DNA of 64,000 bases from an uncultured Methanosarcinales archaeon (GTDB lineage Archaea; Nanobdellota; Nanobdellia; Woesearchaeales; ARS49): NCBI GenBank assembly GCA_964637115.1, contig CAZWVL010000003.1, positions 32,001-96,000 of the forward strand, in the 5' to 3' direction. This document shows positions 38,958-60,932 of the stretch, in pieces. Each line of letters opens with the position of its first letter. Position 1 is the first letter of the stretch. The position numbers and the translations under genes are program-made. The notes beneath the pieces are model-generated. The model worked only from the letters and a program-made list of their open reading frames with translations. It was not told the DNA's origin and did not search any database.

Positions 38958-38958
38958 G

Positions 38959-39717: not shown

Positions 39718-39738
39718 TTTTTTATTTTTCATTTTTTT

Positions 39739-41216: not shown

Positions 41217-42122
41217 ATGGCTGACGAAGAACTAGTAAAAAAGTTTGTAGAACTGCATTCACAAACAGAACAATTGCTAAACGATGACAAGATTGCTGAT
41301 GCAAAACAAAAATATCTTGACGTTGTCAATGCATATCACGAAATCGAGAAAAGCACCCTGGAACATTTCCACAAAGAATTAGCTTACGACCAGGTAACGC
41401 AACTGTTCAAAAAAGTAAATGAAGCAAAAGAACGCGTGAAGATACCATACCACCTGATTCTCGCAGCAGTTTTGATCATAGGATTCAGCATTGTCATCTT
41501 CTTCAAGCCAAGTATCGTCGGACTCGCAGGATTTGAAGACTTAATCAGACAGCCAACAGACTTAGTATTTACGGAAACAAAATTACAACAGGTTTCACTG
41601 CGCGACAGACCATTAACACTCGCAGCAAGCGGAGAATTTATTGGAAAAGTGAAGCTCTTCTACAAAAAAGGAGACAAGTTCGAATTAATATTTGATTCAG
41701 AAAAAAGCAAGAGCACAAACGGCAGCTTCACAGACGTATGCGAAGAAACCTGCGAAATAATTGCAGATTCAAACGCCATAGAACTATTTGCAGACGTTGA
41801 AAACGGAAGCAGGCTGCACGTCAAGGAACTATTGTACAAAATAGAGCGCAAAGACAACACAGCTCCCGCGTGGACAGGAACAACAAAAACATTTACGGCA
41901 AAGAAAGGCGCGACATTAACAATTGACTTAAATCAATATTTCACAGACGCAGAAACTGACCCATTGGTTTACTTAAGCACAACAGATGAAGGTCTTGAAG
42001 TAACTGTACAGAACAGCAAAGTCACGATAACGCCGAAAGCAGAAGGAACAAAAAACATAGTATTCATTTCTTCTGACTTGTTAGAAGTCACGAAGGTTCC
42101 GGTTACTATTGAAGTTAAGTGA
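41217..42122 (+). CDS. Single-TM protein: N-terminal helical domain, C-terminal cadherin/Ig-like domain
   Basis: Central TM LILAAVLIIGFSIVIFF; NTAP...IDLNQYFTDAETDPLVY. Confidence 0.65.
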   Translation: MADEELVKKFVELHSQTEQLLNDDKIADAKQKYLDVVNAYHEIEKSTLEHFHKELAYDQVTQLFKKVNEAKERVKIPYHLILAAVLIIGFSIVIFFKPSIVGLAGFEDLIRQPTDLVFTETKLQQVSLRDRPLTLAASGEFIGKVKLFYKKGDKFELIFDSEKSKSTNGSFTDVCEETCEIIADSNAIELFADVENGSRLHVKELLYKIERKDNTAPAWTGTTKTFTAKKGATLTIDLNQYFTDAETDPLVYLSTTDEGLEVTVQNSKVTITPKAEGTKNIVFISSDLLEVTKVPVTIEVK

Positions 42123-42291: not shown

Positions 42292-44457
42292 GTGAAGTTC
42301 GTGACTAACGAAAAAAAGGGTCAGATTACTATTTTTATAATCATAGGTCTAATACTTCTTGTCATAATTGGCACGGCCATCTATCTCAGCACAAGAGAAG
42401 CTAGAAGACCATTCGAAGTAGCACGGCCGAAAGTAGCAGAGCTATCAACAGAAGTACAACCATTACGCGATTTTGTCGAATCCTGCATCCAACGACTGGC
42501 AACAGACGGTCTTAGAAAAATAGGAGACTCAGGAGGTTATGTAGACCAGAAATATCTCCAGTACAATATTCTTTCTCCAACCGAAGGCGAAGCAGTACAA
42601 ATGTCGCCCGGAGCAGGGCCGTCAGTAGCATACTGGTGGTATTTGAAAAGCAACAACAAATGCCAGCCACCAAACTGCGTTTTTGACTCGAAACGCCCAG
42701 GACTCAGAAGAGGGGATGGGCAGATAACAATCGAAGGACAACTTGACGAATACGTTACAAACAATCTGCGCACCTGCCTTGGAAACTTTGAAGACTACCA
42801 AAAACGAGGTTGCAAGGTGCAAGAACTTGATGATCCAAAAGTCACGGCAAACGTGGCAACAGACGACATATTCTTTGTAGGCAAGTACTCTTTAAGAGCA
42901 GTATGCGGCGGACACAGCTACGACATTGAAGACTATTACGTCACAATAGACCTGAACATCAGAGAAATCTACAATCTTGCAACAGAATTAACCAATTACG
43001 AAAAAGACTACAGACTGCTTGAAAGCGCAACCAAAAATCTAATCTACACCTTCAGCGATGTTGACTCAAGCAAACTTCCGCCACCGCGCGACCTGCAAGT
43101 AGGCCCGCCAAAACCAGGAGTGTTCTGGATAAAAAGCGAAGTAGCAAAGAAGCTTACAGGATTAGTTGCTGCTTACATTCCACTCATACAAACATCAGGT
43201 GTGAGTAACTATCACTACATTACAGCGCCAGAAGGAGTAAGAGACCCAGAAAACTTTGAACTGCTATATAACAGACAATTCTATCTGCCATTAAACTCAA
43301 CACACCCGAAATTAGGGGTAAGATTCAGCTATCTAGACTGGTGGAAGCCATACTTCAACCTGAACTGCAAAGGAGAACTTTGCAGAGCAGATTCTGGCAG
43401 CAATTTCGCACTGCTGCCAATAACAATCAACAGATACCAATTCGCATACGACTTCAGCTATCCTGTTCTGGTTGAAATCAGAAATTCAGAGGCGTTCAAC
43501 ACAGAAGGATACAGCTTCAACTTCTTTTTAGAACAAAACCTGAGAAACTCTGACGCGTTCACAACAGACGTTCCTGAATTCCAGGCAGCAGCAGCAAGAA
43601 CAGCACCATCAATTTTCTGCGATCCAAAACAACAAACCTCGGGAACAGTAAGCCTATTTGTCAAGGACGCTAAAAACCTGAAAGGAACGGAAGATGCGTC
43701 AGTCAGCTTCCTCTGCGGAGACAACGCGTGCATGTTCGGATCCACAAGAAACGGAAGCCTCTCAAGCAAATTCCCCCGCTGCGTAGGAGGAACACTGAGA
43801 ATAAACAAACAAGGATATGCGAGCTTCTCATCGCCCCTCGACACGCAAAGAGAAGAACCAATGAAAATTGACGTTTTACTCGAGCCAGTGCGCACAGTAA
43901 ATGCAACCGTACGAAATTTTGCACTAACGAAGGCAGGCAAACACGACCAGTGGGACTTCAGAGAAGGCGGATCATTAAGGCCGAGCGACAATCAAGAAAC
44001 AACCATACAATTAACGAGAATTGGAAACTCCTGGGAAGAATCATTCAGCTCAGTAGTCAGCTTAACCGGTGATGAAAGCAAAGAAATGTTCATCATACCG
44101 GGAAATTACAGCATAACAATAAACAGTTTCCTAAGAGAAAACCTGACCATACCACCAGACCAGCGCTGCTTCAAAATCAAAAAACTCTTCGGCAGCAAAC
44201 GAAAATGCTTCTGGGTGCCCCAAAACGCCATTGTCTTTAACGAGACCTCGCCATTCCCATACGGGGGAGCAGAATATGAGTATGAGTTCACAAGCTCAAT
44301 GCTAAGAGCAGCAAACAAGATAGAATTCAAACAATTCATCATTGCCATAGACCGAGTGCCAGAAGACAAACGAATTGTAGAAGATTTGAACCAAATCGAT
44401 AATGTAAACGCATATGCGCTGTCAAACCTTGACCGTATATACCCGGTGATAACATGA
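42292..44457 (+). CDS. Large class III signal peptide protein (module A, 721 aa)
   Basis: EKKG|QITIFIIIGLILLVII; start probably GTG 42301 after GAGGGTGA; paralog of 50186..52219. Confidence 0.8.
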   Translation: MKFVTNEKKGQITIFIIIGLILLVIIGTAIYLSTREARRPFEVARPKVAELSTEVQPLRDFVESCIQRLATDGLRKIGDSGGYVDQKYLQYNILSPTEGEAVQMSPGAGPSVAYWWYLKSNNKCQPPNCVFDSKRPGLRRGDGQITIEGQLDEYVTNNLRTCLGNFEDYQKRGCKVQELDDPKVTANVATDDIFFVGKYSLRAVCGGHSYDIEDYYVTIDLNIREIYNLATELTNYEKDYRLLESATKNLIYTFSDVDSSKLPPPRDLQVGPPKPGVFWIKSEVAKKLTGLVAAYIPLIQTSGVSNYHYITAPEGVRDPENFELLYNRQFYLPLNSTHPKLGVRFSYLDWWKPYFNLNCKGELCRADSGSNFALLPITINRYQFAYDFSYPVLVEIRNSEAFNTEGYSFNFFLEQNLRNSDAFTTDVPEFQAAAARTAPSIFCDPKQQTSGTVSLFVKDAKNLKGTEDASVSFLCGDNACMFGSTRNGSLSSKFPRCVGGTLRINKQGYASFSSPLDTQREEPMKIDVLLEPVRTVNATVRNFALTKAGKHDQWDFREGGSLRPSDNQETTIQLTRIGNSWEESFSSVVSLTGDESKEMFIIPGNYSITINSFLRENLTIPPDQRCFKIKKLFGSKRKCFWVPQNAIVFNETSPFPYGGAEYEYEFTSSMLRAANKIEFKQFIIAIDRVPEDKRIVEDLNQIDNVNAYALSNLDRIYPVIT

Positions 44458-47400
44458 GAAAGTTATGCATCATTGCCCTGTTTATGATGGCTCTGATAGT
44501 CAGCATACCGGTAGTATGGGCACAAGAACTAAGCATACAGCAATTCAACGGCAAAGGCAGCAGCAAAGGGGTAGCAAGAACACACGATGAGCTCACGATA
44601 GAAGTTCTCGCAAAGATTCCAGGCGAGGACATAATCAACGAAAGCCAAGTAAGACTATACGTGGAAGACAGCTATTCAAATTTTGATTCCTGCACGTCGG
44701 CAAGCGGCGGATATTACAAGTGCATTTTCCACGAACCAGACTTTGAAGCATACGAGCCAATCGTTTTCACGATAGAACTCCGAAATGACGCGGAAGACAT
44801 AGTGGGCAGCGAAGTAAAAACCCTAATTGTGGACGCTAATGGGCCAGTAATCAAAGATTTTACTGTTGAACCGAACGTGACAAGCGGGGAAGTTTCTGTT
44901 TCATACGTTGCAGAAGATTATGGTCTCAATTACGGAAGCACAGATCAGTGTGCAGGCATCAAACAAATCGTCATAACAGCAGGAAACATTAGCGTAACGG
45001 ACGCAGGCCAGCAAGAAGTATGCACAAAAGACAACACATTGCAACTAACTCTGACAAAACCAGGAAAGCAGCAAGTCTGCGCAACAGCAACAGACCACGC
45101 CAACTACGCCAGCGCGCCAAAATGCACGGAAGTAAGAGTGGACAAAGCTCCGCCAAACATTGAAAAACTGTCAATCTTAGACGACGAAGGATTCTTAATA
45201 ACACACGTGCACTCAGGCGAAGAAAGAACAGCAACAATTACTGCAACAATAAGCGATGACGGCGGAGTTGACAGCAACGAAGTCTACGGAAATTTCTTCC
45301 AATTAAATCCGAACCTTCCAGATGTAATTCCACCTGATTTAGCCTCAGGAGACCTTTACAGCTGGACAGGAATAGGAGTAAGCGAAGTCAGTCCTTGCCA
45401 GTTGAAAATAACGGCTAAAGACATTCTCGGAAATTTCGCGGAGAAACAATTCTCCTGCGACATAAGAGCAGACGATACTCCGCCAATCGTGAAAGGAATC
45501 ATTTCAGAAGCAAACAGAGGAGGAGTTCCGCTGTTTGGATACGGAACACCGCTCATTGTAGAACTTGAAGACCGCGATAATGCAGGCGGAGACGGCATAG
45601 GATTTGTAAGCAAAAAAGTCTACCTTGACATGCACGAGCTTGGAATTGGAAGCAACGTCCAGGCAGATGCCTGCTCACGTTATTCCGGGGCAACGTGGAG
45701 ATGCTTATGGTTCTTGACACCACCAGCAACAGTTCAAGAAAACACGTACCACATACAAGTTCTTGCAGACACAGCAGATGACTTGGGAAATACCGTCGGC
45801 AACGTAGCAGATTACGAGATAATCTACGACAACACAGGACCATACCCGCCACAAGTTCTTGACTTCAAGGTAATATCAGGAGAAGAAGGAGTAGAATATC
45901 GAGGCGGAGCAATCAAAGGAAGCTTTGTACAATACACAGTCAGATCAGCAGACTTCACAACAAGTTATGCAAACTTCACAGACATCGGAGGCAGCGCACA
46001 AACAGGAGCAACAACCTGCACTCCAACAACCGGCAATGCGAGTGACTGCATATTTGAAAGTTTAGTGGATTTAAGCGGACCATACACATCATACTTCACG
46101 TTCGTATTTGCAGACGATGCAAACAACACTGCACGAACAAACGCAACTCTTGAGATTTACGGCATTGATAATGAAACGAATGTCAAGTACTGGAAGTCAC
46201 CTCCAACAGTAACGTGCAGTCCATACGTCATTGACAGATCAACAGCATCACTAATTCCGCCAATAGCAACATGCAGAGTAGATTTAGAAACACCGCGCAG
46301 AGACATAACAACACTAGCAATTGCAGGGCCAACGGCGCCAGACGAATGCACTGGCGACATCGAACTTTTCTTGAATGATATTTACGTGACGAACACAGTA
46401 GAGGGCAGCACGCATCCATACGTGTTCATGAAGCTCGAACCAAGAGATTATGTGTTTAATGAACTAAACATCAACTGCCCGCTGTCAGTCTACAGCAAAC
46501 GCGCAGTTACTGCAGGCGGAAAAACAGTCCATTATGTCTCACCAGAACCGCAAGAAGTTCCAGTAAACATGACGCTTAAGTTCCACAGCAATCCTTTGGG
46601 TGAAATAAACGCGAACATCGACGACGAAATCAGAAGCGCAATGAAAGGAGGGCTGGCAAACGCGGCATGGATAAGCGACCTCCGCAAATGGCTCCACTAT
46701 GGAGAATTAATCTGCCAGATAAAAGTCCTCATCACCAACATCATCAGCGCGCTGTTTATGGTAAGCATAGTGCTTGGCATAACAGCAGTTGCGGTGAGAG
46801 CAACAGGTGTAGGAGCTGGCGCAGCAGAAGTGCCTGCTCAGGCAGCAAAAGCAACTTGCACCGCAGAAGAAGGAGGCTCGGAAAGCTACAAGATAAGCTT
46901 AGGATTCCTTGATTCAATCTGCTCAGTAATCAACTGCGCAGCAGTAAGCGGCAAAGGTTCAGGCATAGAAGCATACGCAGGAGGAGGAGTGCCCTGGTGC
47001 TCAAATATGCGGGCATACTTGCAAAACCTTGACCCAACAGGCCAAGGAGCACTCGACCTTGATGTCAAGAACTCACTCGTACTAAGCATAATATGTTTAT
47101 GCCTGCCAGGCATTATTTACAACTTAGACAAGCTCAGACAAATACAATGCTTTAAGGCAGTCTGTTTGCACGATGACGTCAAATTATCCGGCTATCCTGC
47201 AAGCTTCTGCGATGAAATGTACGGCTACATGATGTGCGCGTTTGTCATTGGAGAACTATTCTCCCTATTCCCATTCATAGCATTCTTCGACAAGATAATG
47301 AACATGGTATTAGACCTAATAACAAACCCAGTTGCACTATTCCTCACAGGACTCGGCTGGGTGTGCACACAAACCTGCTATACAATCGGCACGCAACCAG

Positions 47401-47561
47401 TATTATACACCGGTTGTGCGATATTGAAAACAGTATCGACAGTAGCAGAAGCAGTAGCAGCGTGGAAAACATACCAGAAAAACAAAGATTCATTCGGCAC
47501 AGTAGGAAACAACTACTGCGATAGAATGGAAGAACTGGAAGACGAGATGGGGGAAGGATGA
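44454..47561 (+). CDS. Secreted Ig-rich protein with C-terminal Cys-rich hydrophobic helical region (1035 aa)
   Basis: Signal peptide; D..GP/D..PP Ig-domain boundaries; CLCLPG motif; ATGA overlap. Confidence 0.75.
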   Translation: MRKLCIIALFMMALIVSIPVVWAQELSIQQFNGKGSSKGVARTHDELTIEVLAKIPGEDIINESQVRLYVEDSYSNFDSCTSASGGYYKCIFHEPDFEAYEPIVFTIELRNDAEDIVGSEVKTLIVDANGPVIKDFTVEPNVTSGEVSVSYVAEDYGLNYGSTDQCAGIKQIVITAGNISVTDAGQQEVCTKDNTLQLTLTKPGKQQVCATATDHANYASAPKCTEVRVDKAPPNIEKLSILDDEGFLITHVHSGEERTATITATISDDGGVDSNEVYGNFFQLNPNLPDVIPPDLASGDLYSWTGIGVSEVSPCQLKITAKDILGNFAEKQFSCDIRADDTPPIVKGIISEANRGGVPLFGYGTPLIVELEDRDNAGGDGIGFVSKKVYLDMHELGIGSNVQADACSRYSGATWRCLWFLTPPATVQENTYHIQVLADTADDLGNTVGNVADYEIIYDNTGPYPPQVLDFKVISGEEGVEYRGGAIKGSFVQYTVRSADFTTSYANFTDIGGSAQTGATTCTPTTGNASDCIFESLVDLSGPYTSYFTFVFADDANNTARTNATLEIYGIDNETNVKYWKSPPTVTCSPYVIDRSTASLIPPIATCRVDLETPRRDITTLAIAGPTAPDECTGDIELFLNDIYVTNTVEGSTHPYVFMKLEPRDYVFNELNINCPLSVYSKRAVTAGGKTVHYVSPEPQEVPVNMTLKFHSNPLGEINANIDDEIRSAMKGGLANAAWISDLRKWLHYGELICQIKVLITNIISALFMVSIVLGITAVAVRATGVGAGAAEVPAQAAKATCTAEEGGSESYKISLGFLDSICSVINCAAVSGKGSGIEAYAGGGVPWCSNMRAYLQNLDPTGQGALDLDVKNSLVLSIICLCLPGIIYNLDKLRQIQCFKAVCLHDDVKLSGYPASFCDEMYGYMMCAFVIGELFSLFPFIAFFDKIMNMVLDLITNPVALFLTGLGWVCTQTCYTIGTQPVLYTGCAILKTVSTVAEAVAAWKTYQKNKDSFGTVGNNYCDRMEELEDEMGEG

Positions 47562-49306
47562 GAAAAATCCTCATTATTATTCTGATTGTACTCCTGGTTG
47601 GGTCGGTGATAGTTGAAGCTCAACAAACGTCATCCTCTGGAATTACTGTCACCCGTCGCGTGGAACCAGGCACACAGCCAGCAGCTGCTGCAAAACCAGG
47701 TGTAAAACCACCTACGCAGTACAATTACGTTGCTGAGAGGGACATTTCAAAAGATGAACCAGTTGTTGTAACAACAGGCGGCATTAGATACTACGAGTAC
47801 AAATTTGATACAGATATACGTAAAGGAGATACAATCGCATCACCAGATGCATTAGACACCAAAGTTCTGCAACAAATTCCTCCAGAAGTAAAAAAAGAAA
47901 CTGACAAAAACCGAGAATATACGTATACTTCTGAAACCAACACCTTCGTTTGGTCAAAAGATAAACCAAAAGACGAATATATTATTGAAACAAAGACCGA
48001 CCTCAAAGTAAGCGACGACGGCGAAAGCACAACCAGAGAAACCACACAATCAGTGTATGATAAAACACCTGAAAAAGAAAAGGGCGAATACGTTGAAGGA
48101 TCAAAGCGCACAGAAATTAAAGAAACAAAAACAGCGTCAAAAACAGATCCAAAAACAGGAAAAACAACCGAACGACAAGTGATTGCCAACGAAGGCAGAA
48201 GACTCTATGACAAGCAGGGCAATGAAATCGGAATCCTCTGGACCGGCTATTCAGCATCCGAAAAAAACCCATTGGTGAGCGAGAAAACTTCACTTACCTT
48301 TGTGGGTAAGGATGGTCATACATACTATTATGCTACCCGAGACCCGGACGGCAATCAAGTCATTATGGTAAATGAGCTGGATAAGATGAAAGAAGCCGGG
48401 TTTACAGACGAACAAATAAATCAAGCTAGAGTTGATATCGTCGCGTCAGGCGTCATTGGATTCTTGGATTCTCTAAAAGTGCTCACCTGGCAGCAAAGCC
48501 TCGGCAGATTCATGAGGGCATACTACGAATTTGCAGGATTAAGACAATTATCATCATTATTATGGCCAAGTTATGATGCGGAAGTGCAGGCAAGAAAAGC
48601 AGAAATCCAGCAAAAATTCTGCATTACAGCAGGCATAACAAACTGCGCAATCTCAAAAATATGCGGCACAATATATCCAATCGGTGCAGACAACGTCCTT
48701 GCAGGCAGAGGGCCAGGAGGCAAATTTGTATCCAGCGCCTCACTCAACGCAGAGCGCTCAATCCCAATAGAAGTAGAAGGAATGACAAGACAACAAATGA
48801 TAGACTTGTTCGGCAATGCAACAGTCATCAAAGGAGTGCTTGTAAACCTCACAGACCCGGCATTTGATCCAAGAGTACTTGGCAGGATGAAACTCAGGCT
48901 CTACCACGTGCAGTATAGCGTAACAAACAATGCAGAAGATGAAAAGGAACTCAAGTACAACCTGCACTTCAGAAGAGTTGGAGAACAATTGAACTCAAGC
49001 TATGGAAAACCAGTCTACCAGTCGCGCTGGTGGACAGACAACGCGCCAACATTATCCTATCTTGCAACCGCACGCGACCACATTTACAAGTTCAGCGCAA
49101 CAGAATATGATAATGTATGCCTGGAGTTTGACCCAAAACTGCCGTCAGGACACGCAGCATTCTCAGACATGGTCGATGAATTATGCGTGCCATTCATAGA
49201 ATACGCAGGCGGGCCAACAGAAATAACGCCAGGCGCACAAGCAGCAGCAGGAACACAGCCTGCCCCAGGAGCACCTGTTTCAAGCGTGCCAGGAGCAGCG
49301 GTATGA
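47558..49306 (+). CDS. Secreted hypothetical protein (582 aa)
   Basis: Signal peptide; K/E/T-rich beta region, central helices with C..C..IC; ATGA overlaps. Confidence 0.7.
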   Translation: MRKILIIILIVLLVGSVIVEAQQTSSSGITVTRRVEPGTQPAAAAKPGVKPPTQYNYVAERDISKDEPVVVTTGGIRYYEYKFDTDIRKGDTIASPDALDTKVLQQIPPEVKKETDKNREYTYTSETNTFVWSKDKPKDEYIIETKTDLKVSDDGESTTRETTQSVYDKTPEKEKGEYVEGSKRTEIKETKTASKTDPKTGKTTERQVIANEGRRLYDKQGNEIGILWTGYSASEKNPLVSEKTSLTFVGKDGHTYYYATRDPDGNQVIMVNELDKMKEAGFTDEQINQARVDIVASGVIGFLDSLKVLTWQQSLGRFMRAYYEFAGLRQLSSLLWPSYDAEVQARKAEIQQKFCITAGITNCAISKICGTIYPIGADNVLAGRGPGGKFVSSASLNAERSIPIEVEGMTRQQMIDLFGNATVIKGVLVNLTDPAFDPRVLGRMKLRLYHVQYSVTNNAEDEKELKYNLHFRRVGEQLNSSYGKPVYQSRWWTDNAPTLSYLATARDHIYKFSATEYDNVCLEFDPKLPSGHAAFSDMVDELCVPFIEYAGGPTEITPGAQAAAGTQPAPGAPVSSVPGAAV

Positions 49307-50184
49307 AAATTGGAACGCCAAGAATTATTGGAATTTTATTGATAATAATAGCAGCGCTTGTTTACTTCACCGGACTAAAAGGGTGGTTTGGATTGGGAAT
49401 AGCAGGACTCATTTTGCTGATAGCTTCATTAAATTACACGCAAAAAATGCTAGACCAGTTGATAGAAGCAGTCTCAGAATGGAAAACACTGTTTATCACA
49501 GCACTCTACGACGCAATCTGCTGGCTATTGATATTCGGCAGCGTATACTTCTTCCAATGGAGACTACAGGTAAAATCAGCAATAGCACAGGCAGGCACGG
49601 TACTCACCAGAGAAGCAATGGCGAGTCCACAGTTAACTGCTCAAAACGCAACCCAACTCCAAGGATTCTTCTTTTTCATCCTCACAAGCGCAATCATACT
49701 ATTGGTTTTCAGTTTCCTGGCATATTCGATCTCACGCGGATTCATCTGGACAACAATCGCCAAACAAAAAGCGGATAAAAAATTCTTCACCAGATGGCTT
49801 GGACTGAATGCAATCTGGTGGATAATCTGGACTCCAATATTCCTCATAATCATATTCGCCCTTAAAGGAAGCCCATTGACAAAAGGAGCAATCCTGTTCA
49901 TAATGATGATAGCAGCATACTTCACACCGCTAGTACAAGTTTTGTTCCTGCGGACGAGAAAAATAGGTTACAGTCTCGCAAACGGACTAGGGTGGGGATT
50001 ATCAAAACTGCATCTGCTTATAGTGCCTTATACGTACGCGTTTGTCATATACATAATAATTTACCAATTGTTCAGATTATTTCAAAACACTACAGCAATG
50101 CGGCCAGTATCAATGCTGTTTGTCGTGCTATTCATCGCGTGGCTGAGAATATACCTCTATCACATTATCAAACAATTCAAGTAA
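49303..50184 (+). CDS. Polytopic membrane protein
   Basis: Many TM helices; start moved from 49183 to ATG 49303. Confidence 0.75.
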   Translation: MKIGTPRIIGILLIIIAALVYFTGLKGWFGLGIAGLILLIASLNYTQKMLDQLIEAVSEWKTLFITALYDAICWLLIFGSVYFFQWRLQVKSAIAQAGTVLTREAMASPQLTAQNATQLQGFFFFILTSAIILLVFSFLAYSISRGFIWTTIAKQKADKKFFTRWLGLNAIWWIIWTPIFLIIIFALKGSPLTKGAILFIMMIAAYFTPLVQVLFLRTRKIGYSLANGLGWGLSKLHLLIVPYTYAFVIYIIIYQLFRLFQNTTAMRPVSMLFVVLFIAWLRIYLYHIIKQFK

Positions 50185-50185
50185 A

Positions 50186-55200: not shown

Positions 55201-58200
55201 CAGCAGGCAAAAAATTCGGTCAGTGCAACATTGATGAAAAGTACATTTACGCCCAAGTAATTCAGGCCATTGGAAGCCCAGACAAAGACTACATCATCAA
55301 GCCAAACGAAGGGCTGATAAACTCAGTCAGATGCCTTTGCATCCCAACAATTGTTGGATACCTCAAATTATGGAGAGGAATAATGGGAGCAGTAAAAAGC
55401 TGCATTGACACCATACTCCTGACTGGCGACGGAGAGAATGGAATGTGCCAGGCACTCGTCAGCAGATACGTCTGCGATTTATTGTATGACGCGCTTGCCT
55501 GCTTCACGCAAAAATTCGGCACAGGACAAGGAAGAGTAGAAAAAGAAGGCGGCGGAGACATAATGGGGGCGTTAGTTTCTGCAGGAAGCGAAATGCAAAG
55601 AGAAGTGCAAGGCAGATATGGAGAAACAGGGCTTTACAAAGCAGTATTTGTCGACAGAAAATTAGTACACTCAATCTGCATGTGGGCGTTCACAGGAACG
55701 TGGAACTTCGACTTGGGAGCAATATTTGACCAAGCAATAGACGAAATCCCGATCAGCAGCCAGGCATTGCTAACACCGTGCAACAGAAGATTCGTAAGCT
55801 TCAACCCAACAACAAGACCAGGAGGACTGGTAACGTGGGTGTATCACTTCGGGTCATTCTTCGCAGCAGGAGCAGACGCAGAAATAGAATTGCACCTTGT
55901 CTGCAGCGATGATTTCACGTGCAAAGAATCAGACGGCTTTGAAAACGGCAAGTGCGACTGCCAAGGCAAAGGAAAAAGAGATATTGTTATCAGGCCGGAA
56001 AACCTTCCAACAAGAGCAAAGAAAAACCAAATCCTGAGCGAAGAAATATTCTTCACGATGCAAGCAGGCAGCGGAGAGAGCAATGTTCGATATGACAAAG
56101 CATACCTCCTCTACAGGTGGAAAGAAGCAAACAAACAGATGAAAGAAGACAAGACAGAACCCTGCTCAATTGGATTAACAGGCGGCGGTGGAAGCATGCC
56201 TGCATTCTGCAGATGGGATCCGTTCACAGTAAGCTTCAGGTGCCAGTTTGGCGAAGCGGCAGGAGGAATACGCTTCAAATCAGGAAAACCAGACTACAAA
56301 CATCCGACAGTAAAAGGCGGAGTTTTCGCACTTGACGAAAGCGTTAGTGTAGAACTGCAGATGCAGCAAGACTATCCAGGCGGAGAAAAGTACAACAAAT
56401 ACTTGCAGTACACCATACTAGGCCCAGGCAACAAAGAACTTGCCACTAACAAAGACAGAGGACTAATATTATTACAGACAAATGGCGATTACAATAAGCG
56501 ATTATCAGCAGACGGCACGCCACCAGTGCCAATAGAAATAAAACGAGAATGGTTCACAACAGTAGAAGCAGGAAAAACCTTTTCGGCCAGACAATGGGCA
56601 AAATCACCACAAAATCCAACAGGCACAGCAGCAGACAACAAAGTAATTGAAGATGTGCAATTGGTAGGACTTGTAGGAGCAGTAGCAGCACAAAAGCAGT
56701 TCGTGCTTGAGCTAACAAGACAAGGCGACAAAATAAATTATGCAGTCTACACAGCTGGCACGAACGACAAGCCAGGAGTGGGGGAAAAGGGCGGATTCTA
56801 CGTTGCAACACCAGCACTCTGCACAGGCACAATTTCTGGAACGAAAATTACGTGCACACCATCAATAGCTCCAAGACCAGGGCAACCACCACAGCCGCAA
56901 GACACTCTAACAATAACACTCAAAGCAGATCCTCTTTACCCAACAGTAGACGAACTAATCCAGCTGCACATAAACATGAACATTCCAAGAACATTAGCAG
57001 CTGACCCGTGCAAAGGAGACGTAAACAACAGGTATCAACAATCATTCAAAATGATGCTGATGGCATACGATGCAGATAATTATGGATCACCATCAGAACA
57101 AGTAGCAGTAGACCCGTATACAGGAGCGGAAGCGGTGTTTGAAATTCCATTTTATGCCATGTGCGCAACGGCAGATGAATTAAAGCCGCTGGAAGGAATA
57201 CTTGGGCCAGCAGAAATATTGGCAGGACTGAGCAAGGACATAAACGCGTGGTTAGCACCAGAAAAAGATTACAAGACCAAACTCGAAGGATTTGTCTCGC
57301 AACCACTCAAGATAGAACAAACTACGAGTGTGCAAAATCAACTCGACCAGATAATCTTTGGCGAAACGGCAAATTCAGTTGTACTCGAGAAATACAAAAC
57401 CAATCTGAAGAATATAACAGGAATGGATGCAGTAAAAGCAGCAGTTGAAGAATTATACAATATTATCAGACCTCCATTCCACGCTGAACTCGATTTGCGC
57501 AATGTTGTCGGCTTGTCAATTGATGCCAAAAATGTTATCACAAACGAGCTTAAAGGCACGCCAAACGTGACAAAAATACAGGATGCGCTCAGACCAATCA
57601 TACCAGAACTTCAGAAAGCACTCGAAGCAAAACAGAAATTACTAACTTTGCTGCCAGCAGCTGCAGGCGAAAAAGGAGCCTGCCCAAGCGGAAAACAAGT
57701 TCCAGAAAAAACAGGAGAATATTATCTCTGTGCAACATCCTTGCCATCAGACAAATGGGTTGAAGTAACGGACAGGCAATGCTACGCAGTTGAAAAACAA
57801 ACATGCTACAAATTGTCGGCTTCAAACCTCTGTTACGACAAAAACACGAATGGAGACACGTTCCACTGCGACACAGAATGCAAAGGAAACTCAGAAACAT
57901 CAAGTGAGCAACGCATTTGTCCGAAGAAAGAAGAGCCAACGTGTTGTGTAGTCAAGTCAACAATTGCGCAAAAACTCCTGCAACTGAAAAACCAAATCGG
58001 CCAGCAGCAAGGCGATGATGAAAGCTTCAGGTCAAGCATTACCACAACAAGGACAAATGAAGAATTAATTACATATCTGGTTGGAACAGGCGATATAAAT
58101 GTCCCAACACTGATATCAGAGCTGAAAGCATATGCGTCTTTGAAAAATCTTGAAAGAGAAGGGCTCTCAAGTGTTGTTGGGTCATCAGGCCTGACACCCA

Positions 58201-59444
58201 CTGATGAAGTCAGACGTTTCATTGGCATGGATGAAGATTATGCCTGGAAAACAACATTTATGGTATTTGGAATACCTTTTGAACTTCACGCTTTGTCGGT
58301 ATCGGTTGAAAACTTGAATAAAATGAAAGACGACCTAGTGGCAATGGCACAAGCGCCGCCAACAGCGCCAAACGGACCATCTCCTGAAAACATAAAAGCA
58401 GCCATTGCCCGCATTTCATTGGAAGTTGGCGTTATTAAGGCAACGCGCGCACTTGCCATCAATTCGCTTGACAAAGACCTAGGCATCATACCAAAGACTA
58501 CAGAAGAAGTTGTAAAAGAAACTGCTGGTGCAGCGCCGGCAGCAGCGTCAGTTGCAGCCCCGCCAAAACTTCCGCTCAGCATCAACGGCAAAACAGACCT
58601 TGCAATTATTACAAAAGGAACAGATATTCAAGTCAAAATAATACTTCCAAAAAACGTACAAGCCTTTGAGTACATTGAATTATTCGCATACAAAAGCAAT
58701 GTTCACATTGCCACCTGGGACCTCAGAAACAACTACAATCCAAGCACGGGTGAGGCAACATATATGTTAGGCCCAGACCAGTACGCCAATTTTGTAATAG
58801 GCGAAACATACGAATTTGACATGGCGTATAATCCGCCGCACACAATTGGAAACAAAGTACAAGTGAGAATAATTGTTCCGCCATGCGGAGACGGAAAAAT
58901 AGACCAAGGAGAAGTATGCGACAGAAAGAGCGATGGAACAGTAATAGCAAGCAATGAAATGGTTTACAATCCAACCACATTTACTGCATACTGGCAGATT
59001 TATGCACCATCGATGGGACCATTCGGAGCGACTGAATATAGAGTATTGTTCAGCAAAAACATGCAGACGTTCTGTAATGATATCATTGGAGAAGATTGTG
59101 ATGACAAGGTGGAATACTCTGCAGAAAAAGGATGGTGTTCAGGAGACTGCAAGAAATTCATGCCAAGAGTTGGGTGCGTAGATGATGACACAATCGGCGA
59201 CAGCGGAAGAGCAGCATATCTCACGCCAGAATTCTATTACGAAGGCACGGAAAAAAAGATGAACAACGTATGGTGGTATCTCTTCAGCGATCCAAACGCG
59301 GGAAGAAATGGATGCTATCCAACCACTGAAGAGGCAGGATTGCCTCCATACAACGATAAATGGACAGAAGCACCAGTTCCAATAGACTATCCGCAATTTA
59401 TGACCAAGCCCGCTCCTTTCCAACCTCCAACGGCACAACCATGA
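52212..59444 (+). CDS. Giant (2410 aa) secreted Ig- and Cys-rich surface protein
   Basis: Signal peptide; N-terminal Ig-like repeats (DNSPP, DTGPP); CLCIPT module; CGDGKIDQGEVCD Myxococcus-type Cys-rich motif. Confidence 0.8.
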   Translation: MDKNTKEEKRKVNYLTRSLSEFFSPTLCKGEKNSPHHRTLARRQLGSVALFMAFLIIMLPIVDAQAIGDQPTAQGEETTVKPLFVNATIPRYPRTMKIDIAGITKPGATITININGADVKKDIIDDGTFLFKQVQLQASNAIIITAELGGETATQTYQADVDNSPPLINITTTPVVTAASSTVKVKVSEPVNLTVQAGNQTNKSYSLQAGSNDVKIELQPGENMVGFTAVDRAGFKSFIEERIVYDTGPPRFEKTNLNQLSPTYRQEVEVKGKLSEPGSVTAFVNGKPQKTEATASDGSFSIKVKLERSLSVTAGSQSASGVTGGAVSIEQGIQWKSKLRLEAIDAAGLKATTEEVEIAYSICGSGTWIDVQLTDPMPDILNPRLIIEGIQQVGIGFNYTYRGGAKAEIDARSIRIRTLMLSPEVRKEFDNNLVMVRAPNVRAQRATKPSGVGYIQVNFNPLEDPWSLPEKDGKKEEAPANATMFDREQRISQHREGDCITPGFGCMKLFLELEIPFTETTRKMAYDPIVRGTLEKDVVEPLTQRTCIDVNIAIDKRVPPDVLPSGLLRASSEFLGAVIQGIDKVLMPIQTIGKYLFYTCVAGQFLSLVPIVLEKYNCEFRKVADVLAGGEGAFDPNVAAINACDAEYGAGSDAADNCNTCHKWKDYRKKFVRTYRQICDRVMCPAAPSLQYYLKTRGRESPTEVKAENAKADPVIAQYAQGGKLFAGSDCAAWVDVNKRKEERGTKKPVLAPRLFFTTDEIQKIYDNWLKHQSNTAGETETGGVNCAGLHPATPECCGYEYMQEWSSACGTSALGQSLDTFDEIKESTCLAAQRSGKNEIGGLEGESIQCNKLLNAASGFCEKNGMPPLTPIRVTTIDARKAESLELQKYAESNDLYIIVQDKGAASSILGVVPTGQSQGYSIKLGLIIKTLEFQKSDKPEIIATSERSKLTEKLDVIEYPEYTAFQTSFFSQEQIDVYREKAAIPPDFKKTLCDAAGKKFGQCNIDEKYIYAQVIQAIGSPDKDYIIKPNEGLINSVRCLCIPTIVGYLKLWRGIMGAVKSCIDTILLTGDGENGMCQALVSRYVCDLLYDALACFTQKFGTGQGRVEKEGGGDIMGALVSAGSEMQREVQGRYGETGLYKAVFVDRKLVHSICMWAFTGTWNFDLGAIFDQAIDEIPISSQALLTPCNRRFVSFNPTTRPGGLVTWVYHFGSFFAAGADAEIELHLVCSDDFTCKESDGFENGKCDCQGKGKRDIVIRPENLPTRAKKNQILSEEIFFTMQAGSGESNVRYDKAYLLYRWKEANKQMKEDKTEPCSIGLTGGGGSMPAFCRWDPFTVSFRCQFGEAAGGIRFKSGKPDYKHPTVKGGVFALDESVSVELQMQQDYPGGEKYNKYLQYTILGPGNKELATNKDRGLILLQTNGDYNKRLSADGTPPVPIEIKREWFTTVEAGKTFSARQWAKSPQNPTGTAADNKVIEDVQLVGLVGAVAAQKQFVLELTRQGDKINYAVYTAGTNDKPGVGEKGGFYVATPALCTGTISGTKITCTPSIAPRPGQPPQPQDTLTITLKADPLYPTVDELIQLHINMNIPRTLAADPCKGDVNNRYQQSFKMMLMAYDADNYGSPSEQVAVDPYTGAEAVFEIPFYAMCATADELKPLEGILGPAEILAGLSKDINAWLAPEKDYKTKLEGFVSQPLKIEQTTSVQNQLDQIIFGETANSVVLEKYKTNLKNITGMDAVKAAVEELYNIIRPPFHAELDLRNVVGLSIDAKNVITNELKGTPNVTKIQDALRPIIPELQKALEAKQKLLTLLPAAAGEKGACPSGKQVPEKTGEYYLCATSLPSDKWVEVTDRQCYAVEKQTCYKLSASNLCYDKNTNGDTFHCDTECKGNSETSSEQRICPKKEEPTCCVVKSTIAQKLLQLKNQIGQQQGDDESFRSSITTTRTNEELITYLVGTGDINVPTLISELKAYASLKNLEREGLSSVVGSSGLTPTDEVRRFIGMDEDYAWKTTFMVFGIPFELHALSVSVENLNKMKDDLVAMAQAPPTAPNGPSPENIKAAIARISLEVGVIKATRALAINSLDKDLGIIPKTTEEVVKETAGAAPAAASVAAPPKLPLSINGKTDLAIITKGTDIQVKIILPKNVQAFEYIELFAYKSNVHIATWDLRNNYNPSTGEATYMLGPDQYANFVIGETYEFDMAYNPPHTIGNKVQVRIIVPPCGDGKIDQGEVCDRKSDGTVIASNEMVYNPTTFTAYWQIYAPSMGPFGATEYRVLFSKNMQTFCNDIIGEDCDDKVEYSAEKGWCSGDCKKFMPRVGCVDDDTIGDSGRAAYLTPEFYYEGTEKKMNNVWWYLFSDPNAGRNGCYPTTEEAGLPPYNDKWTEAPVPIDYPQFMTKPAPFQPPTAQP
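52270..52314. repeat. Perfect 17-bp inverted repeat inside the 5' end of the giant CDS
   Basis: GTGAATTTTTCTCCCCC-acactttgtaa-GGGGGAGAAAAATTCAC. Confidence 0.85.
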
Positions 59445-60250
59445 CCCTAATTACAACCCTCCCCCTCGCCTGGAAGGCATTCACTGAAAACAAGAAGTAT
59501 TTGATATGGATAATCCTAATAGAATTCGTATTCCTCTTTGTTCTAACTCAAATACATTTGATGTACTTCGTGCCAAGCGCAGAAGCAGCAGCAAGAGCAG
59601 GAGAAATAATGACGCAAGAAGTACAGAAATTGCCGGAAACAGAAATTTATCAGCTTGAAACACTGCTTGTGAAAAATGAAGGCTTTATGACAGCATACAA
59701 CGAGTTGCTTGCCTATATGGGCTTTTTCATAATAAGCCTGTTTATTGCATTTGTTGTTTTCAGAACTCCATTATGGTATATCTCGCACAAAAGCATACTG
59801 AAGAAAATGCCCTGGAAACCAGTGCTGATAAAGTTTCCATTGCTTTCACTGTTCTGGTTTGTAGTGCTGGTAATAGCTTTTTCACTTTACAGCATTGGCA
59901 CAGGCAGCACAACAACAGTACTGCCAATTTTCAGCCCGTTCTGGGTGACGATACTAATGTACATAGTATTTCTGGCTATCTTTTACTTCTCCCAAATCAG
60001 TTTTGCTCTCATCCCGTCACAACAAACCTTTAAGAATACGTTCATCTATGGCACTAGACATGCAAAAACAATCATTCCAGCATTCCTCGTCAACGCAATC
60101 ATTACTTTCATTGTCTGCTCATTGCCATTCAACTGGATTACAACAAAACCACTCATCTCGCTCGCAATCATACTCATCATCACAATTCCAGCACTTGCAT
60201 TTGCAAGACTGCACATCATAGTAGCAACATGGCAAAAACCGCAATCATAA
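59441..60250 (+). CDS. Polytopic membrane protein, probable paralog of 49303..50184
   Basis: About 6 TM helices, similar layout; start moved from 59360 to ATG 59441 (ATGA overlap). Confidence 0.75.
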   Translation: MTLITTLPLAWKAFTENKKYLIWIILIEFVFLFVLTQIHLMYFVPSAEAAARAGEIMTQEVQKLPETEIYQLETLLVKNEGFMTAYNELLAYMGFFIISLFIAFVVFRTPLWYISHKSILKKMPWKPVLIKFPLLSLFWFVVLVIAFSLYSIGTGSTTTVLPIFSPFWVTILMYIVFLAIFYFSQISFALIPSQQTFKNTFIYGTRHAKTIIPAFLVNAIITFIVCSLPFNWITTKPLISLAIILIITIPALAFARLHIIVATWQKPQS

Positions 60251-60828
60251 CAATATTGCTGATATTCGTAGTAGTTCTGTTAGTTTACATAGCAGTCAGA
60301 CAGCCAGCAGTTGTAACAACGCCCGCACAGCCAACGCCAATACAGCAGCTAACGCCAAGGGCGCCAGCAATAGAAGTCGGCGTGCCAACGCAAAAAGCGC
60401 CCGTGACAAAACAACCGGCAGCAGGAATTGAAATAGAAAAAGTCATACCGCAAGAAGTAAACTTCTGGATAAATGACATAAGAGCGCCAGAAACAACCAC
60501 GTATGCAGAAGGATTAAACTTCATACCAATCAAGCAAAGCGACATCAAAACATTTGCAGGAAGCTTTGGACCATACTTTGAAGACCCGACTCCGCATATG
60601 AAAGTAGTCCTTTGCGCAGAATATTACAAAGTCGCTGCAGCACCAGCCTGCGAAGTCGTGCAATTAGTATTCCAAGACAAGTATGCAACGTTCGCACGCG
60701 GATACCAATTTGACGAGTACATAGGCGGAATGGCAGCAAAAGACTACGTTGCCTATTACACAATTTACGCCGGAGAAGCTCCAGTTGGATACAGCAACAA
60801 AGCGGTCATTAGAACAGTAAGAGATTAA
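60229..60828 (+). CDS. N-terminally anchored hypothetical protein
   Basis: One TM, Pro/Thr linker, beta domain with a Cys pair. Confidence 0.7.
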   Translation: MAKTAIITILLIFVVVLLVYIAVRQPAVVTTPAQPTPIQQLTPRAPAIEVGVPTQKAPVTKQPAAGIEIEKVIPQEVNFWINDIRAPETTTYAEGLNFIPIKQSDIKTFAGSFGPYFEDPTPHMKVVLCAEYYKVAAAPACEVVQLVFQDKYATFARGYQFDEYIGGMAAKDYVAYYTIYAGEAPVGYSNKAVIRTVRD

Positions 60829-60932
60829 ATTCCGATTTTTTCCATCTTTTTTGAAATTCTTCCAACTCTCATCGTAAACTTTCCAACATTTTCGTCGATG
60901 AATCCATTAAGGAGTTCTGTTTGTTACTTTTT

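What the first reader, a model, noticed from the sequence alone, without database searches (positions are those of the whole stretch)
42292..60828. Duplicated multi-gene cell-surface machine (best candidate for an undescribed system)
Seen: eight tightly coupled co-directional genes, none with a recognisable function. Module A: KKG|Q protein (721 aa), Cys/Ig protein (1035 aa), 582-aa secreted protein, polytopic membrane protein. Module B: KKG|Q protein (677 aa), giant Cys/Ig protein (2410 aa), polytopic membrane protein, 199-aa anchored protein. The two pilin-signal proteins align throughout (GGY, NLxxCxGNF, FxYDxxYPV, CxxxxCxxGxT, KxGY). Established: class III signal peptides mark type IV pilus-associated proteins, and DPANN need host contact. 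Inference: a pilus-delivered host-attachment or membrane-contact apparatus. No ATPase or peptidase is in the locus, so they would act in trans.
Basis: partly seen in the sequence, partly recalled or inferred. Interest (0 to 1): 0.82.

Follow-up and report, generated by a model that had tools for sequence, protein, structure and literature searches.

The report
Duplicated pilin-like/giant surface-protein module
A small symbiotic (DPANN) archaeon carries two tandem copies of an ancient three-gene set (a large pilin-signal protein, a giant surface protein and a membrane protein) that is kept in almost all its relatives and probably builds the still-unknown apparatus that touches other cells.

Summary
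Eight co-directional genes with overlapping or abutting ends lie at 42292-60828, and none matches a curated family. Profile comparisons show a true tandem duplication of three genes: A1~B1 (E 7e-79), A2~B2 N-terminal Ig part (E 1.5e-10) and A4~B3 (E 1.2e-11). A3 and B4 are unrelated add-ons.

Gene order is kept across the order. Other orders of the class, including 0.5-0.8 Mb genomes, carry a single module: a pilin-signal protein, a ~2000-aa giant and mostly a 6-7-TM protein. The A1 profile matched 237 of 251 sampled genomes.

A1 has a conserved [KR]G|Q class III signal and a new N-terminal domain (D1). D1 also occurs alone in ~255-aa pilin-like proteins. The rest of A1 is beta-sandwiches. The type IV filament ATPase, platform and A24 peptidase are encoded elsewhere in the genome.

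New evidence: 5 of 111 related giants end in peptidoglycan hydrolase domains from six Pfam families, and two of them were checked to sit in genuine B modules. This points to action on another cell's envelope. The window's own B2 has no such domain.

Pilus dependence, complex formation and function remain inferred. I found no published description. The scan had already noted this stretch, and class III signals on large proteins in another genome.

The parts
42292..44457 (+). A1: 721-aa class III-signal protein (the database form starts at GTG 42301 and has 718 aa). N-terminal helix, new D1 and D2 alpha/beta domains (about residues 45-430), then a transthyretin/CarboxypepD_reg-like beta-sandwich (443-531) and further beta-sandwiches to about 690.
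   Evidence: ORF. Conserved KKGQ...FIIIG in a 50-sequence alignment. AF2 model pLDDT 87.4, pTM 0.74. VIA Z 11.9 to 5aq0_B (rmsd 1.6, 80 aligned) for residues 448-531. No PDB or Atlas neighbour with a name for residues 45-430.
44454..47561 (+). A2: 1035-aa secreted protein. Signal peptide, about seven Ig/PKD/FnIII-like beta-sandwich domains (25-711), then a Cys-rich hydrophobic all-helical C-terminal domain (717-1035) with the CLCLP motif at 881.
   Evidence: AF2 pLDDT 78.6; beta part confident, helical part 45-70. PKD domain 4xed_A Z 11.7, rmsd 1.9, 93 aligned. Generic Ig chains and S-layer proteins in Foldseek. About 18 invariant Cys in 33 sequences.
47558..49306 (+). A3: 582-aa secreted protein with a low-complexity N-terminal half and a conserved C-terminal half. 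It is an add-on to module A, kept in the family and in part of the order only.
   Evidence: jackhmmer links it to the positional analogues in L016 and L020 but not L017 or L019. No similarity to B4 or B2.
49303..50184 (+). A4: 293-aa polytopic membrane protein (about 7 hydrophobic helices), paralogue of B3.
   Evidence: Hydropathy. hhalign A4~B3 prob 97.4%, E 1.2e-11, 245 columns. Alignment shows only W149 invariant and R282 nearly so, with no catalytic-looking motif. No Pfam hit in 10 members.
50186..52219 (+). B1: 677-aa class III-signal protein, full-length paralogue of A1.
   Evidence: BLASTP E 3e-23. hhalign E 7.4e-79 over 636 columns. Separate A and B clades in the tree.
52212..59444 (+). 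B2: 2410-aa giant secreted protein. N-terminal Ig part homologous to A2, a Cys-rich conserved core (about 590-1350, CLCIP at 1041), a long helical/beta middle, and a variable C-terminal tip (about 2220-2384).
   Evidence: hhalign A2~B2 N-terminal part E 1.5e-10. Core module vs A2 C-terminus prob 81%, E 1.2e-5. 518 related giants. Tip shared with only some close relatives. No Pfam hit in its own tail.
59360..60250 (+). B3: polytopic membrane protein (6 hydrophobic helices), paralogue of A4. The probable true start is Met28 at 59441, which overlaps the B2 stop by 4 nt.
   Evidence: The start is inferred from the overlap pattern of the other junctions.
60229..60828 (+). B4: 199-aa protein with one N-terminal anchor helix. 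Add-on to module B, kept in family-level relatives.
   Evidence: An oligo-T tract follows at 60841-60856.
41217..42122 (+). U5: 301-aa protein with a mid-chain membrane helix and an Ig-like C-terminal domain. It is the conserved upstream neighbour of A1 in family-level relatives and a possible ninth member.
   Evidence: tblastn in L014, L023, L024 and L025 (31-77% identity). Weak Big_9 hit, E 0.003, below cut-off.

Best explanation
Each module encodes a membrane-anchored extracellular complex made of three conserved proteins.
1. A large pilin-like protein (A1/B1). Its class III signal is cut by the genome's A24 prepilin peptidase. Its N-terminal helix and D1 domain then sit in, or at the base or tip of, a type IV filament-like assembly driven by the ATPase and platform encoded elsewhere.
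2. A giant secreted protein (A2/B2). It forms a stalk of Ig-like domains around a disulfide-stapled core and ends in a variable distal tip.
3. A 6-7-TM membrane protein (A4/B3) that serves as a membrane dock or assembly factor.

The complex reaches out to the envelope of another cell, either a host or prey. In some relatives the giant's tip is a peptidoglycan hydrolase that would cut a bacterial wall. In this genome the tip is a Cys-rich domain of unknown specificity.

The module is ancestral to the class. It was duplicated at or before the radiation of this order into a long (B) form and a shortened (A) form.

Shown: the genes, the paralogy, the synteny, the distribution, the domain folds, the machinery encoded in trans, and the hydrolase fusions in orthologues.
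Inferred: signal cleavage, filament dependence, physical complex formation, and the cell-contact role.
For: - Paralogy of three gene pairs.
- Order A1-A2-(A3)-A4-B1-B2-(B3-B4) is kept in relatives from several families of the order.
- Other orders of the class carry a single module of class III protein, giant and, in three of five, a polytopic protein. This includes 0.5-0.8 Mb genomes.
- The A1 profile matched 237 of 251 high-quality genomes.
- The A and B clades each span six families.
- [KR]G|Q followed by a hydrophobic helix is conserved. About a dozen other proteins of this genome share it, including small pilin-like ones.
- D1 occurs alone in ~255-aa proteins.
- D1 also occurs in a third paralogue, which again sits next to a giant Cys-rich protein and four small class III proteins.
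- The A24 peptidase, a 751-aa T2SSE ATPase and the adjacent platform-like protein are encoded in trans. This matches the scattered T4F layout reported for DPANN (PMC13705601).
- Among 111 related giants, the only enzymatic Pfam domains in the C-terminal tails belong to six peptidoglycan-hydrolase families, found in 5 proteins.
- Two of these giants were checked and lie in true B modules.
- The distal tip is swapped between close relatives.
- The module's proteins diverge faster than neighbouring housekeeping genes: 43-61% against 83-85% identity to the same genome.
Against: - No direct evidence exists for cleavage, filament incorporation or binding among the three proteins.
- No Pfam pilin family matches A1 or B1, and D1 has no solved structural neighbour.
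- Hydrolase tips occur in only about 5% of the sampled giants. They are absent from the window's B2 and, for SLT and Amidase_2, from the whole genome.
- Near-universal retention among housekeeping genes, even in 0.5-Mb genomes, fits a basic envelope component as well as a contact organelle.
- The locus contains no ATPase.
- A4/B3 show no conserved polar motif, so their role is a guess.
Confidence: 0.5

Rival explanations
1. Structural envelope: the giant proteins are the canopy of an S-layer-like coat. The pilin-signal protein and the polytopic protein are its membrane anchors, comparable in logic to SlaA/SlaB. The two modules would give two coat components.
For: - The A1 profile matches nearly the whole class, including 0.5-0.8 Mb genomes, and the locus lies among translation genes.
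- Foldseek places A2 next to the S-layer proteins SbsB, Sap and EA1.
- The A1 beta-sandwich resembles a SlaB domain: 8qox_B Z 9.6, rmsd 2.0, 83 aligned.
- No other S-layer candidate was identified here.
Against: - The S-layer matches are generic Ig-chain similarities with TM 0.1-0.16.
- Peptidoglycan-hydrolase tips and swapped distal tips are not expected of a lattice protein.
- A1 is anchored at its N-terminus by a class III signal, whereas SlaB uses a C-terminal helix.
- Giant size varies from 1345 to 2410 aa among orthologues.
Confidence: 0.2
2. Membrane-contact or fusion device: the disulfide-stapled hydrophobic helical module shared by A2 and B2 inserts into the partner's membrane. This would open a pore or cytoplasmic bridge, with the Ig stalk and A1/B1 serving only as a scaffold.
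For: - A shared module surrounds CLC[LI]P (hhalign prob 81%, E 1.2e-5).
- That region contains strongly hydrophobic helices and many conserved Cys.
- Cytoplasmic bridges built from unknown proteins are documented in cultured Nanobdellota (PMC11420986).
Against: - The helical domain is modelled with low confidence (pLDDT 45-70).
- No fusogen or pore-former was matched. The one HAP2 row (5ow3_C, Z 8.9) covers a single generic beta-sandwich.
- The A1 profile found nothing in five class-level genomes. Two of these are 0.5-0.6 Mb single-contig genomes, which by size could be the cultured Nanobdellales in which bridges were seen.
- In A2 the module is at the C-terminus next to a transmembrane-like helix, which points to the archaeon's own membrane.
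Confidence: 0.1
3. Antibacterial or scavenging weapon without attachment: the giants are secreted or displayed lytic and binding proteins used to kill bacteria or harvest wall fragments. The neighbouring genes would be export or immunity helpers.
For: - Six peptidoglycan-hydrolase families are fused to orthologous giants.
- The literature reports 'large lytic murein transglycosylases' in Woesearchaeota (PMC9723730) and many peptidoglycan hydrolases in Nanoarchaeota (PMC12352652).
Against: - About 95% of the sampled giants, including both in this window, have no recognisable hydrolase.
- This genome has no SLT or Amidase_2.
- The conserved parts are the stalk and the core, not the enzyme.
Confidence: 0.1
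4. Bindosome-like nutrient capture: A1 and B1 are class III-signal binding proteins displayed on a type IV filament base, and A4/B3 are transporter permeases.
For: - Class III signals are known on substrate-binding proteins that sit beside transporter genes (PMC13705601).
- A4 and B3 have the size and helix count of small permeases.
Against: - The A1 model shows no substrate-binding-protein fold.
- No ABC or other transporter family matched A4 or B3 in 10 members.
- No ATPase gene is adjacent.
- This reading does not explain the giant protein between the two.
Confidence: 0.05

Closest known systems
Archaeal type IV filament (T4F) loci with large adhesin-like proteins (system 2 and subsystem 4G of the Makarova classification, as reviewed in PMC13705601)
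   Same: - Class III-signal proteins are encoded beside very large Ig-rich 'adhesin-like' proteins and accessory membrane proteins.
- This genome's ATPase has a long N-terminal extension (751 aa) and a single-gene platform, as described for system 2.
- The DPANN layout, with an adjacent ATPase and platform but scattered pilins, matches.
   Different: - The ATPase, platform and peptidase are not in the locus.
- The class III protein is 680-720 aa with a new D1 domain, not a small pilin.
- None of the proteins matches a Pfam or NCBIfam family (arCOG assignments could not be tested with these tools).
- The three-gene unit is conserved across a class and is tandemly duplicated here.
Bacterial type IV pilus tip complexes (large minor pilin or adhesin such as PilY1/PilC with minor pilins; GspK-type large pseudopilin). 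This comparison rests on my own knowledge.
   Same: A large pilin-signal subunit would link a filament to a big non-pilin adhesin and would give the fibre its target specificity.
   Different: - No sequence or fold match was found.
- The lineage is archaeal and the organism has a single membrane.
- The giant partner has its own Sec signal and a Cys-rich core.
- A dedicated polytopic membrane protein is part of the unit.
Sulfolobales two-component S-layer SlaA/SlaB (PDB 8qox)
   Same: A big Ig-rich outer protein is paired with a smaller membrane-anchored protein built of beta-sandwich domains. One A1 domain superposes on a SlaB domain (Z 9.6, rmsd 2.0, 83 aligned).
   Different: - A1 has an N-terminal class III anchor, whereas SlaB has a C-terminal helix and a coiled coil.
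- There is no sequence similarity.
- Orthologous giants carry hydrolase tips and their tips vary.
'Large lytic murein transglycosylases' of Woesearchaeota and Pacearchaeota MAGs (PMC9723730; also mentioned in PMC11537232)
   Same: Giants of the same family as B2 carry SLT, VanY, Amidase_2, M74, M23 or glucosaminidase domains at the C-terminus. These are probably among the proteins those papers counted.
   Different: - The papers record only the enzyme domain.
- They do not describe the 2000-aa conserved stalk and core, the linked pilin-signal and polytopic genes, or the fact that most family members (including this window's) lack the enzyme.

Membership tests
Archaeal class III-signal (type IV pilin-like) proteins | Short basic N-terminus, G/A at -1, then an uninterrupted hydrophobic helix | tested here: met
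   A1 MKFVTNEKKG|QITIFIIIGLILLVIIG and B1 MNKKKG|QITIFIIIG. Q8, F12, I14 and G16 are at least 90% conserved in 50 homologues. The AF2 model shows helix 5-39.
Archaeal class III-signal (type IV pilin-like) proteins | A prepilin (A24) peptidase, a secretion ATPase and a platform protein are present in the genome | tested here: met
   PF01478 at 55.3 bits at C3:7090-7419. PF00437 at 57.8 bits in a 751-aa ORF at C4:1098-3353. The adjacent 710-aa ORF matches PF00482 only weakly (20.7 bits, below cut-off).
Archaeal class III-signal (type IV pilin-like) proteins | Match to a curated pilin family model | tested here: not met
   No Pfam family at E<=1 and no NCBIfam family at E<=0.1 for A1 or B1.
Archaeal class III-signal (type IV pilin-like) proteins | Signal cleavage and incorporation into a filament | not testable with these tools
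   This needs N-terminal sequencing or mass spectrometry and imaging.
Two-component S-layer (SlaA/SlaB type) | Anchor protein with beta-sandwich domains, a coiled coil and a C-terminal membrane helix | tested here: not met
   A1's only membrane helix is N-terminal. One beta-sandwich resembles a SlaB domain (Z 9.6), but the model shows no coiled-coil stalk.
Two-component S-layer (SlaA/SlaB type) | Outer protein forms a lattice covering the cell | not testable with these tools
   The Foldseek similarity of A2 to SbsB, Sap and EA1 is generic Ig-chain similarity.
Peptidoglycan hydrolases (Amidase_2, SLT, M23, M74, VanY, Glucosaminidase) | Catalytic domain recognised by the family model in the window's own proteins | tested here: not met
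   No such hit in any of the eight proteins or in the B2 tail 1351-2410. No SLT or Amidase_2 anywhere in the genome. The feature is met in the orthologues P0253, P0288 and P0264.
Bindosome-type class III binding protein plus transporter | Periplasmic-binding-protein fold and an adjacent ABC permease and ATPase | tested here: inconclusive
   No binding-protein fold among the listed structural matches. No transporter family in 10 A4/B3 members. D1 and D2 were not folded and searched alone.
Fusexin/HAP2-type fusogens and pore-formers | Three-domain class II fusion fold or a pore-forming fold | tested here: inconclusive
   There is only a single-domain row for HAP2 (5ow3_C, Z 8.9, rmsd 2.8, 96 aligned). 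The helical C-terminal domain is too poorly modelled to search.
Type IV secretion / conjugation (VirB4, VirB6/TrbL, TraN) | VirB4-type ATPase and recognisable VirB6/TraN-type components | tested here: not met
   No such Pfam family in any of the eight proteins or in the flanking genes.

The most novel reading that the evidence does not exclude
The three-gene module is the core of a previously undescribed cell-contact organelle, ancestral to most Nanoarchaeia (Woesearchaeales, Pacearchaeales and allies). In this reading a type IV filament-dependent base, built from the D1 pilin-like protein and its polytopic partner, carries a 2000-aa stalk. The exchangeable tip of the stalk recognises the envelope of the host and, in some lineages, enzymatically breaches it. 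The tandem A and B copies would give this order two differently sized devices.
Probability: 0.35. Interest if true: 0.85.

Novelty: new variant of a known kind. Interest (0 to 1): 0.72.

Why it matters
How uncultured DPANN archaea such as Woesearchaeota and Pacearchaeota hold on to and exploit their partners is unknown. Even for cultured Nanobdellota, the proteins of the attachment organelle remain unidentified (PMC11420986).

This module is a concrete, nearly class-wide candidate. It has three conserved proteins, a confident structure model for one of them, a new pilin-like domain (D1) and a giant family with more than 500 cluster representatives.

The peptidoglycan-hydrolase tips in some members tie the module to bacterial partners. 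The variable tip gives a handle for predicting partner type from sequence.

If the module turns out instead to be the envelope scaffold of these cells, that would also fill a gap, because no coat protein is known for them.

Tried and rejected
- **Complex prediction.** A2 residues 717-1035 with A4 gave no verdict (score 0.00, controls not run). This is neither support nor evidence against binding.
- **Family libraries.** Pfam and NCBIfam scans of the eight proteins found nothing above cut-off. Sub-threshold rows (SP24, Glucodextran_B, DUF5826, OmpL47, Bd0108) were ignored as chance or generic Ig. Ten A4/B3 members scanned at E<=5 gave nothing.
- **PDB sequence profiles.** For A1 the only row was a designed protein at E 0.0012. 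For B2 the only row was a glucodextranase Ig domain at E 0.08.
- **ESM Atlas.** The search by shape with the A1 model found only unnamed archaeal clusters (TM 0.45-0.52) and CarboxypepD_reg proteins. Feature searches with the A2 C-terminus and with A1 residues 38-435 gave no usable hit.
- **Structure searches.** Foldseek and VIA on both models returned only single beta-sandwich domain matches. BFVD returned generic beta-sandwich tail and baseplate rows only.
- **A3 and B4.** No relationship was found between A3 and B4 or between A3 and B2.
- **Third paralogue.** BLASTP with the low-complexity filter on missed it. The profile comparison found it.
- **Mobile element or provirus.** Rejected. The flanks are ThrRS, Pth2, S6e and a NOG1-type GTPase. 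The locus is syntenic across an order, and GC content is even.
- **Literature.** No paper describing this gene set was found in seven searches.
- **Rooting.** The tree is unrooted, so it cannot show whether B is the ancestral form. The careful tree search did not finish and the quick tree was used.
Full report
**What is there**

Between 42292 and 60828 the plus strand carries eight ORFs:

| Gene | Length | Character |
|---|---|---|
| A1 | 721 aa | class III-signal protein |
| A2 | 1035 aa | secreted, Ig-rich, Cys-rich |
| A3 | 582 aa | secreted |
| A4 | 293 aa from 49303 | polytopic membrane protein |
| B1 | 677 aa | class III-signal protein |
| B2 | 2410 aa | giant secreted protein |
| B3 | 296 aa, or 269 aa from Met28 at 59441 | polytopic membrane protein |
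| B4 | 199 aa | one N-terminal anchor helix |

Neighbouring genes overlap by 4-22 nt or are 1 nt apart. An oligo-T tract follows B4, and a 170-nt AT-rich spacer precedes A1. The flanks are housekeeping genes: ThrRS, Pth2, ribosomal protein S6e and a NOG1-type GTPase. GC content is even across the window.

Homologues are named Woesearchaeota or Nanoarchaeia archaeon. One relative is labelled Aenigmatarchaeota and two are labelled 'uncultured Methanosarcinales'. The genome is 1.27 Mb and 98% complete. It is therefore a DPANN archaeon.

No Pfam or NCBIfam family reaches its cut-off for any of the eight proteins.

**Is the duplication real?**

Yes, for three of the four gene pairs.
- Family profiles built from relatives give A1~B1 E 7.4e-79 (636 columns), A2~B2 E 1.5e-10 (261 columns, signal peptide plus the first Ig-like domains) and A4~B3 E 1.2e-11 (245 columns).
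- A3 and B4 are related neither to each other nor to the rest.
- The Cys-rich hydrophobic module around CLC[LI]P, noted by earlier readers, gets moderate support as a second shared element of A2 (C-terminus) and B2 (about 1000-1200): probability 81%, E 1.2e-5. The exact motif is kept only within the family.

**Conservation**

tblastn and ORF maps of fetched loci show the order A1-A2-(A3 or a non-homologous ORF)-A4-B1-B2-(B3-B4) in relatives from several families of the same order (L014, L016, L017, L018, L019, L020, L023, L025). In one search at least 17 of 40 relatives have an A1-like and a B1-like gene 1-9 kb apart on one contig.

A quick ML tree puts the A1 orthologues in one clade (SH-aLRT 100), the B1 orthologues in another (97) and the single-copy forms in a third (95). 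The A and B clades each contain families f1, f5, f8, f11, f16 and f17. The duplication is therefore older than those families. The tree is unrooted.

In five genomes from other orders of the class (0.5-0.8 Mb) there is one module only: a 620-715-aa class III protein, then a 1989-2183-aa secreted giant. In three of the five, a 232-273-aa protein with 6-7 helices follows.

The A1 profile matched 237 of 251 high-quality genomes sampled across the phylum at E<=1e-10. Five class-level genomes, among them two single-contig genomes of 0.5-0.6 Mb, had no match even at E<=0.01.

The conserved unit is therefore three genes. It is ancient and nearly class-wide, not an accessory island.

Counts include the unpublished genomes G010, G023 and G270. 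The map of L022 is from G023. No conclusion rests on them alone.

**The proteins**

*A1.* The AF2 model, built on 50 homologues, has pLDDT 87.4 and pTM 0.74. It shows:
- an N-terminal helix (5-39);
- two alpha/beta domains (about 45-235 and 236-430) with no named structural neighbour in the PDB or the ESM Atlas;
- a transthyretin/CarboxypepD_reg-like beta-sandwich at 443-531 (5aq0_B Z 11.9, rmsd 1.6, 80 aligned; also CnaB domains of Gram-positive pilins and a SlaB domain, Z 9.6);
- further beta-sandwiches to about residue 690.

The first domain, D1, behaves as a unit of its own:
- About 255-aa proteins in other orders match profile positions 2-235, and one lies directly after the giant in L039.
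- A third paralogue in this genome (490 aa, contig 4) shares residues 5-228 (probability 99.5%, E 1.4e-22). It again sits immediately upstream of a giant Cys-rich secreted protein (1699 aa), followed by four small proteins with class III-like N-termini.

*A2.* The AF2 model (pLDDT 78.6) has about seven confident Ig/PKD/FnIII-like domains (25-711; 4xed_A Z 11.7) and a poorly modelled all-helical C-terminal domain (717-1035).

*A4 and B3.* They have 6-7 hydrophobic helices and almost no invariant residues. This argues for a structural role rather than a catalytic one.

**Link to type IV filaments**

- The G|Q site and the following helix are strongly conserved.
- A genome-wide scan finds about a dozen further [KR]G|Q N-termini. 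These include two small proteins just upstream in the window (38553 and 38959) and clusters on contig 4.
- The genome encodes an A24 prepilin peptidase, a 751-aa T2SSE ATPase and an adjacent 710-aa protein with a weak T2SSF match.
- A recent survey reports exactly this scattered arrangement for DPANN. It also notes class III signals on non-pilin surface proteins and large adhesin-like proteins in some archaeal T4F loci (PMC13705601).
- Cleavage and filament incorporation of A1 and B1 remain inferences. No curated pilin model matches them.

**What the giants do: new evidence**

The B2 core (590-1350) finds 518 cluster representatives at E<=0.001 (272 at E<=1e-30). Nearly all are 1300-3000 aa, and the best-kept part corresponds to B2 residues about 1010-1350.

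I scanned the C-terminal tails of 111 of these giants against Pfam at E<=1e-5. The only enzymatic families found are six peptidoglycan-cleaving ones:
- Amidase_2 (P0253);
- Peptidase_M74 (P0288);
- SLT together with VanY (P0264);
- Glucosaminidase (one protein);
- Peptidase_M23 (one protein).

That is five proteins in all. The only other hit was an Ig domain.

P0253 and P0288 lie in genuine B modules. A B1 orthologue lies upstream (E 3e-181 and 3.8e-54). Downstream lies a D1-only protein (P0253) or a B3 orthologue (P0288).

These archaea are not known to have murein, so such tips point at bacterial cell walls. This fits earlier reports of 'large lytic murein transglycosylases' in Woesearchaeota (PMC9723730) and of many peptidoglycan hydrolases in Nanoarchaeota (PMC12352652).

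The window's own B2 has no recognisable enzyme, and the genome has no SLT or Amidase_2. Its last ~190 residues (2221-2384) are shared with only some close relatives, and in others the tail is replaced beyond about residue 1925-2140. The distal end is thus an exchangeable part.

The module's proteins also diverge faster than the adjacent housekeeping genes: 43-61% against 83-85% identity to the same relative.

**Most likely mechanism (confidence about 0.5)**

A three-protein surface complex:
- The D1 pilin-like protein is processed by the A24 peptidase. It is held through its N-terminal helix in, or beside, a type IV filament-like assembly.
- It carries or positions the giant stalk protein.
- The polytopic protein is the membrane dock or assembly factor.
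- The exchangeable tip of the giant engages another cell's envelope, and in some lineages it cuts peptidoglycan.

Rivals:
- an S-layer-like structural coat (0.2), favoured by the near-universal retention and disfavoured by the hydrolase and variable tips;
- a membrane-insertion or fusion device built on the Cys-stapled helices (0.1);
- a displayed antibacterial or scavenging enzyme carrier without an attachment role (0.1);
- a bindosome-like uptake system (0.05).

**Comparison with known systems**

It works most like T4F-associated adhesin modules and like pilus tip complexes in bacteria. It cannot be filed in any curated family: no pilin, adhesin, S-layer, transporter, secretion or fusogen model matched.

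I found no paper that describes the gene set. I rate it a new variant of a known kind, with a 0.35 chance that it is the core of an undescribed contact organelle of most Nanoarchaeia.

Earlier notes of this scan had already flagged this same stretch, the CLC[LI]P module and the palindrome. They had also flagged class III signals on large proteins in another genome.

Noticed in passing
window 52270-52314: A perfect 17-nt inverted repeat (GTGAATTTTTCTCCCCC / GGGGGAGAAAAATTCAC, 11-nt loop) lies inside the unusually long 43-residue n-region of the B2 signal peptide. It sits between the B1 stop and the hydrophobic core. Orthologues have a short n-region, and the first ~80 residues of B2 do not align with the same-genus relative. 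It may be an inserted element or an RNA hairpin between B1 and B2.
   Followed up: partly
window 38553-40344: Three small genes lie upstream of Pth2 and S6e. Two have clear class III-like N-termini: MKRG|QHAIGLVLLG (134 aa) and MKKG|QTGIALVILG (252 aa from 38959). The third is a 201-aa paralogue of the second (32% identity). They are candidate pilins for the same filament system.
   Followed up: partly
G000 contig 4, 73748-85770 (minus strand; loci L031, L032): A third module-like cluster. Two secreted Cys-rich proteins (567 and 374 aa) are followed by a 490-aa D1 protein (RKRG|QITIFIIIG), a 1699-aa giant (4.8% Cys, with a C-terminal hydrophobic helix) and four small proteins with class III-like N-termini (180, 371, 191 and 164 aa).
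   Followed up: partly
G000 contig 4, 61997-67132 (minus strand; locus L031): A run of seven small genes whose products have basic N-termini followed by hydrophobic helices. It looks like a typical archaeal pilin cluster. It lies far from the ATPase and platform pair at contig 4, 1098-5482.
   Followed up: no
window 63262-63993 (minus strand): A 243-aa, very Cys-rich protein with a C-terminal membrane helix, cut by the window end. It has no Pfam match. It is another disulfide-rich surface protein of this genome.
   Followed up: no
L039 13196-16037 (groundwater metagenome contig): In this relative the gene after the hydrolase-tipped giant is a 258-aa D1-only pilin-like protein (MKRG|QITLFIVVG) instead of the polytopic B3. 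A 693-aa secreted protein follows. The third position of the module can therefore vary.
   Followed up: partly
G027:C23:1665-5329 and G033:C6:492-4447: In these two order-level relatives the A1-like and B1-like genes appear directly adjacent, with no giant gene between them. This would be a different arrangement of the duplicated module.
   Followed up: no
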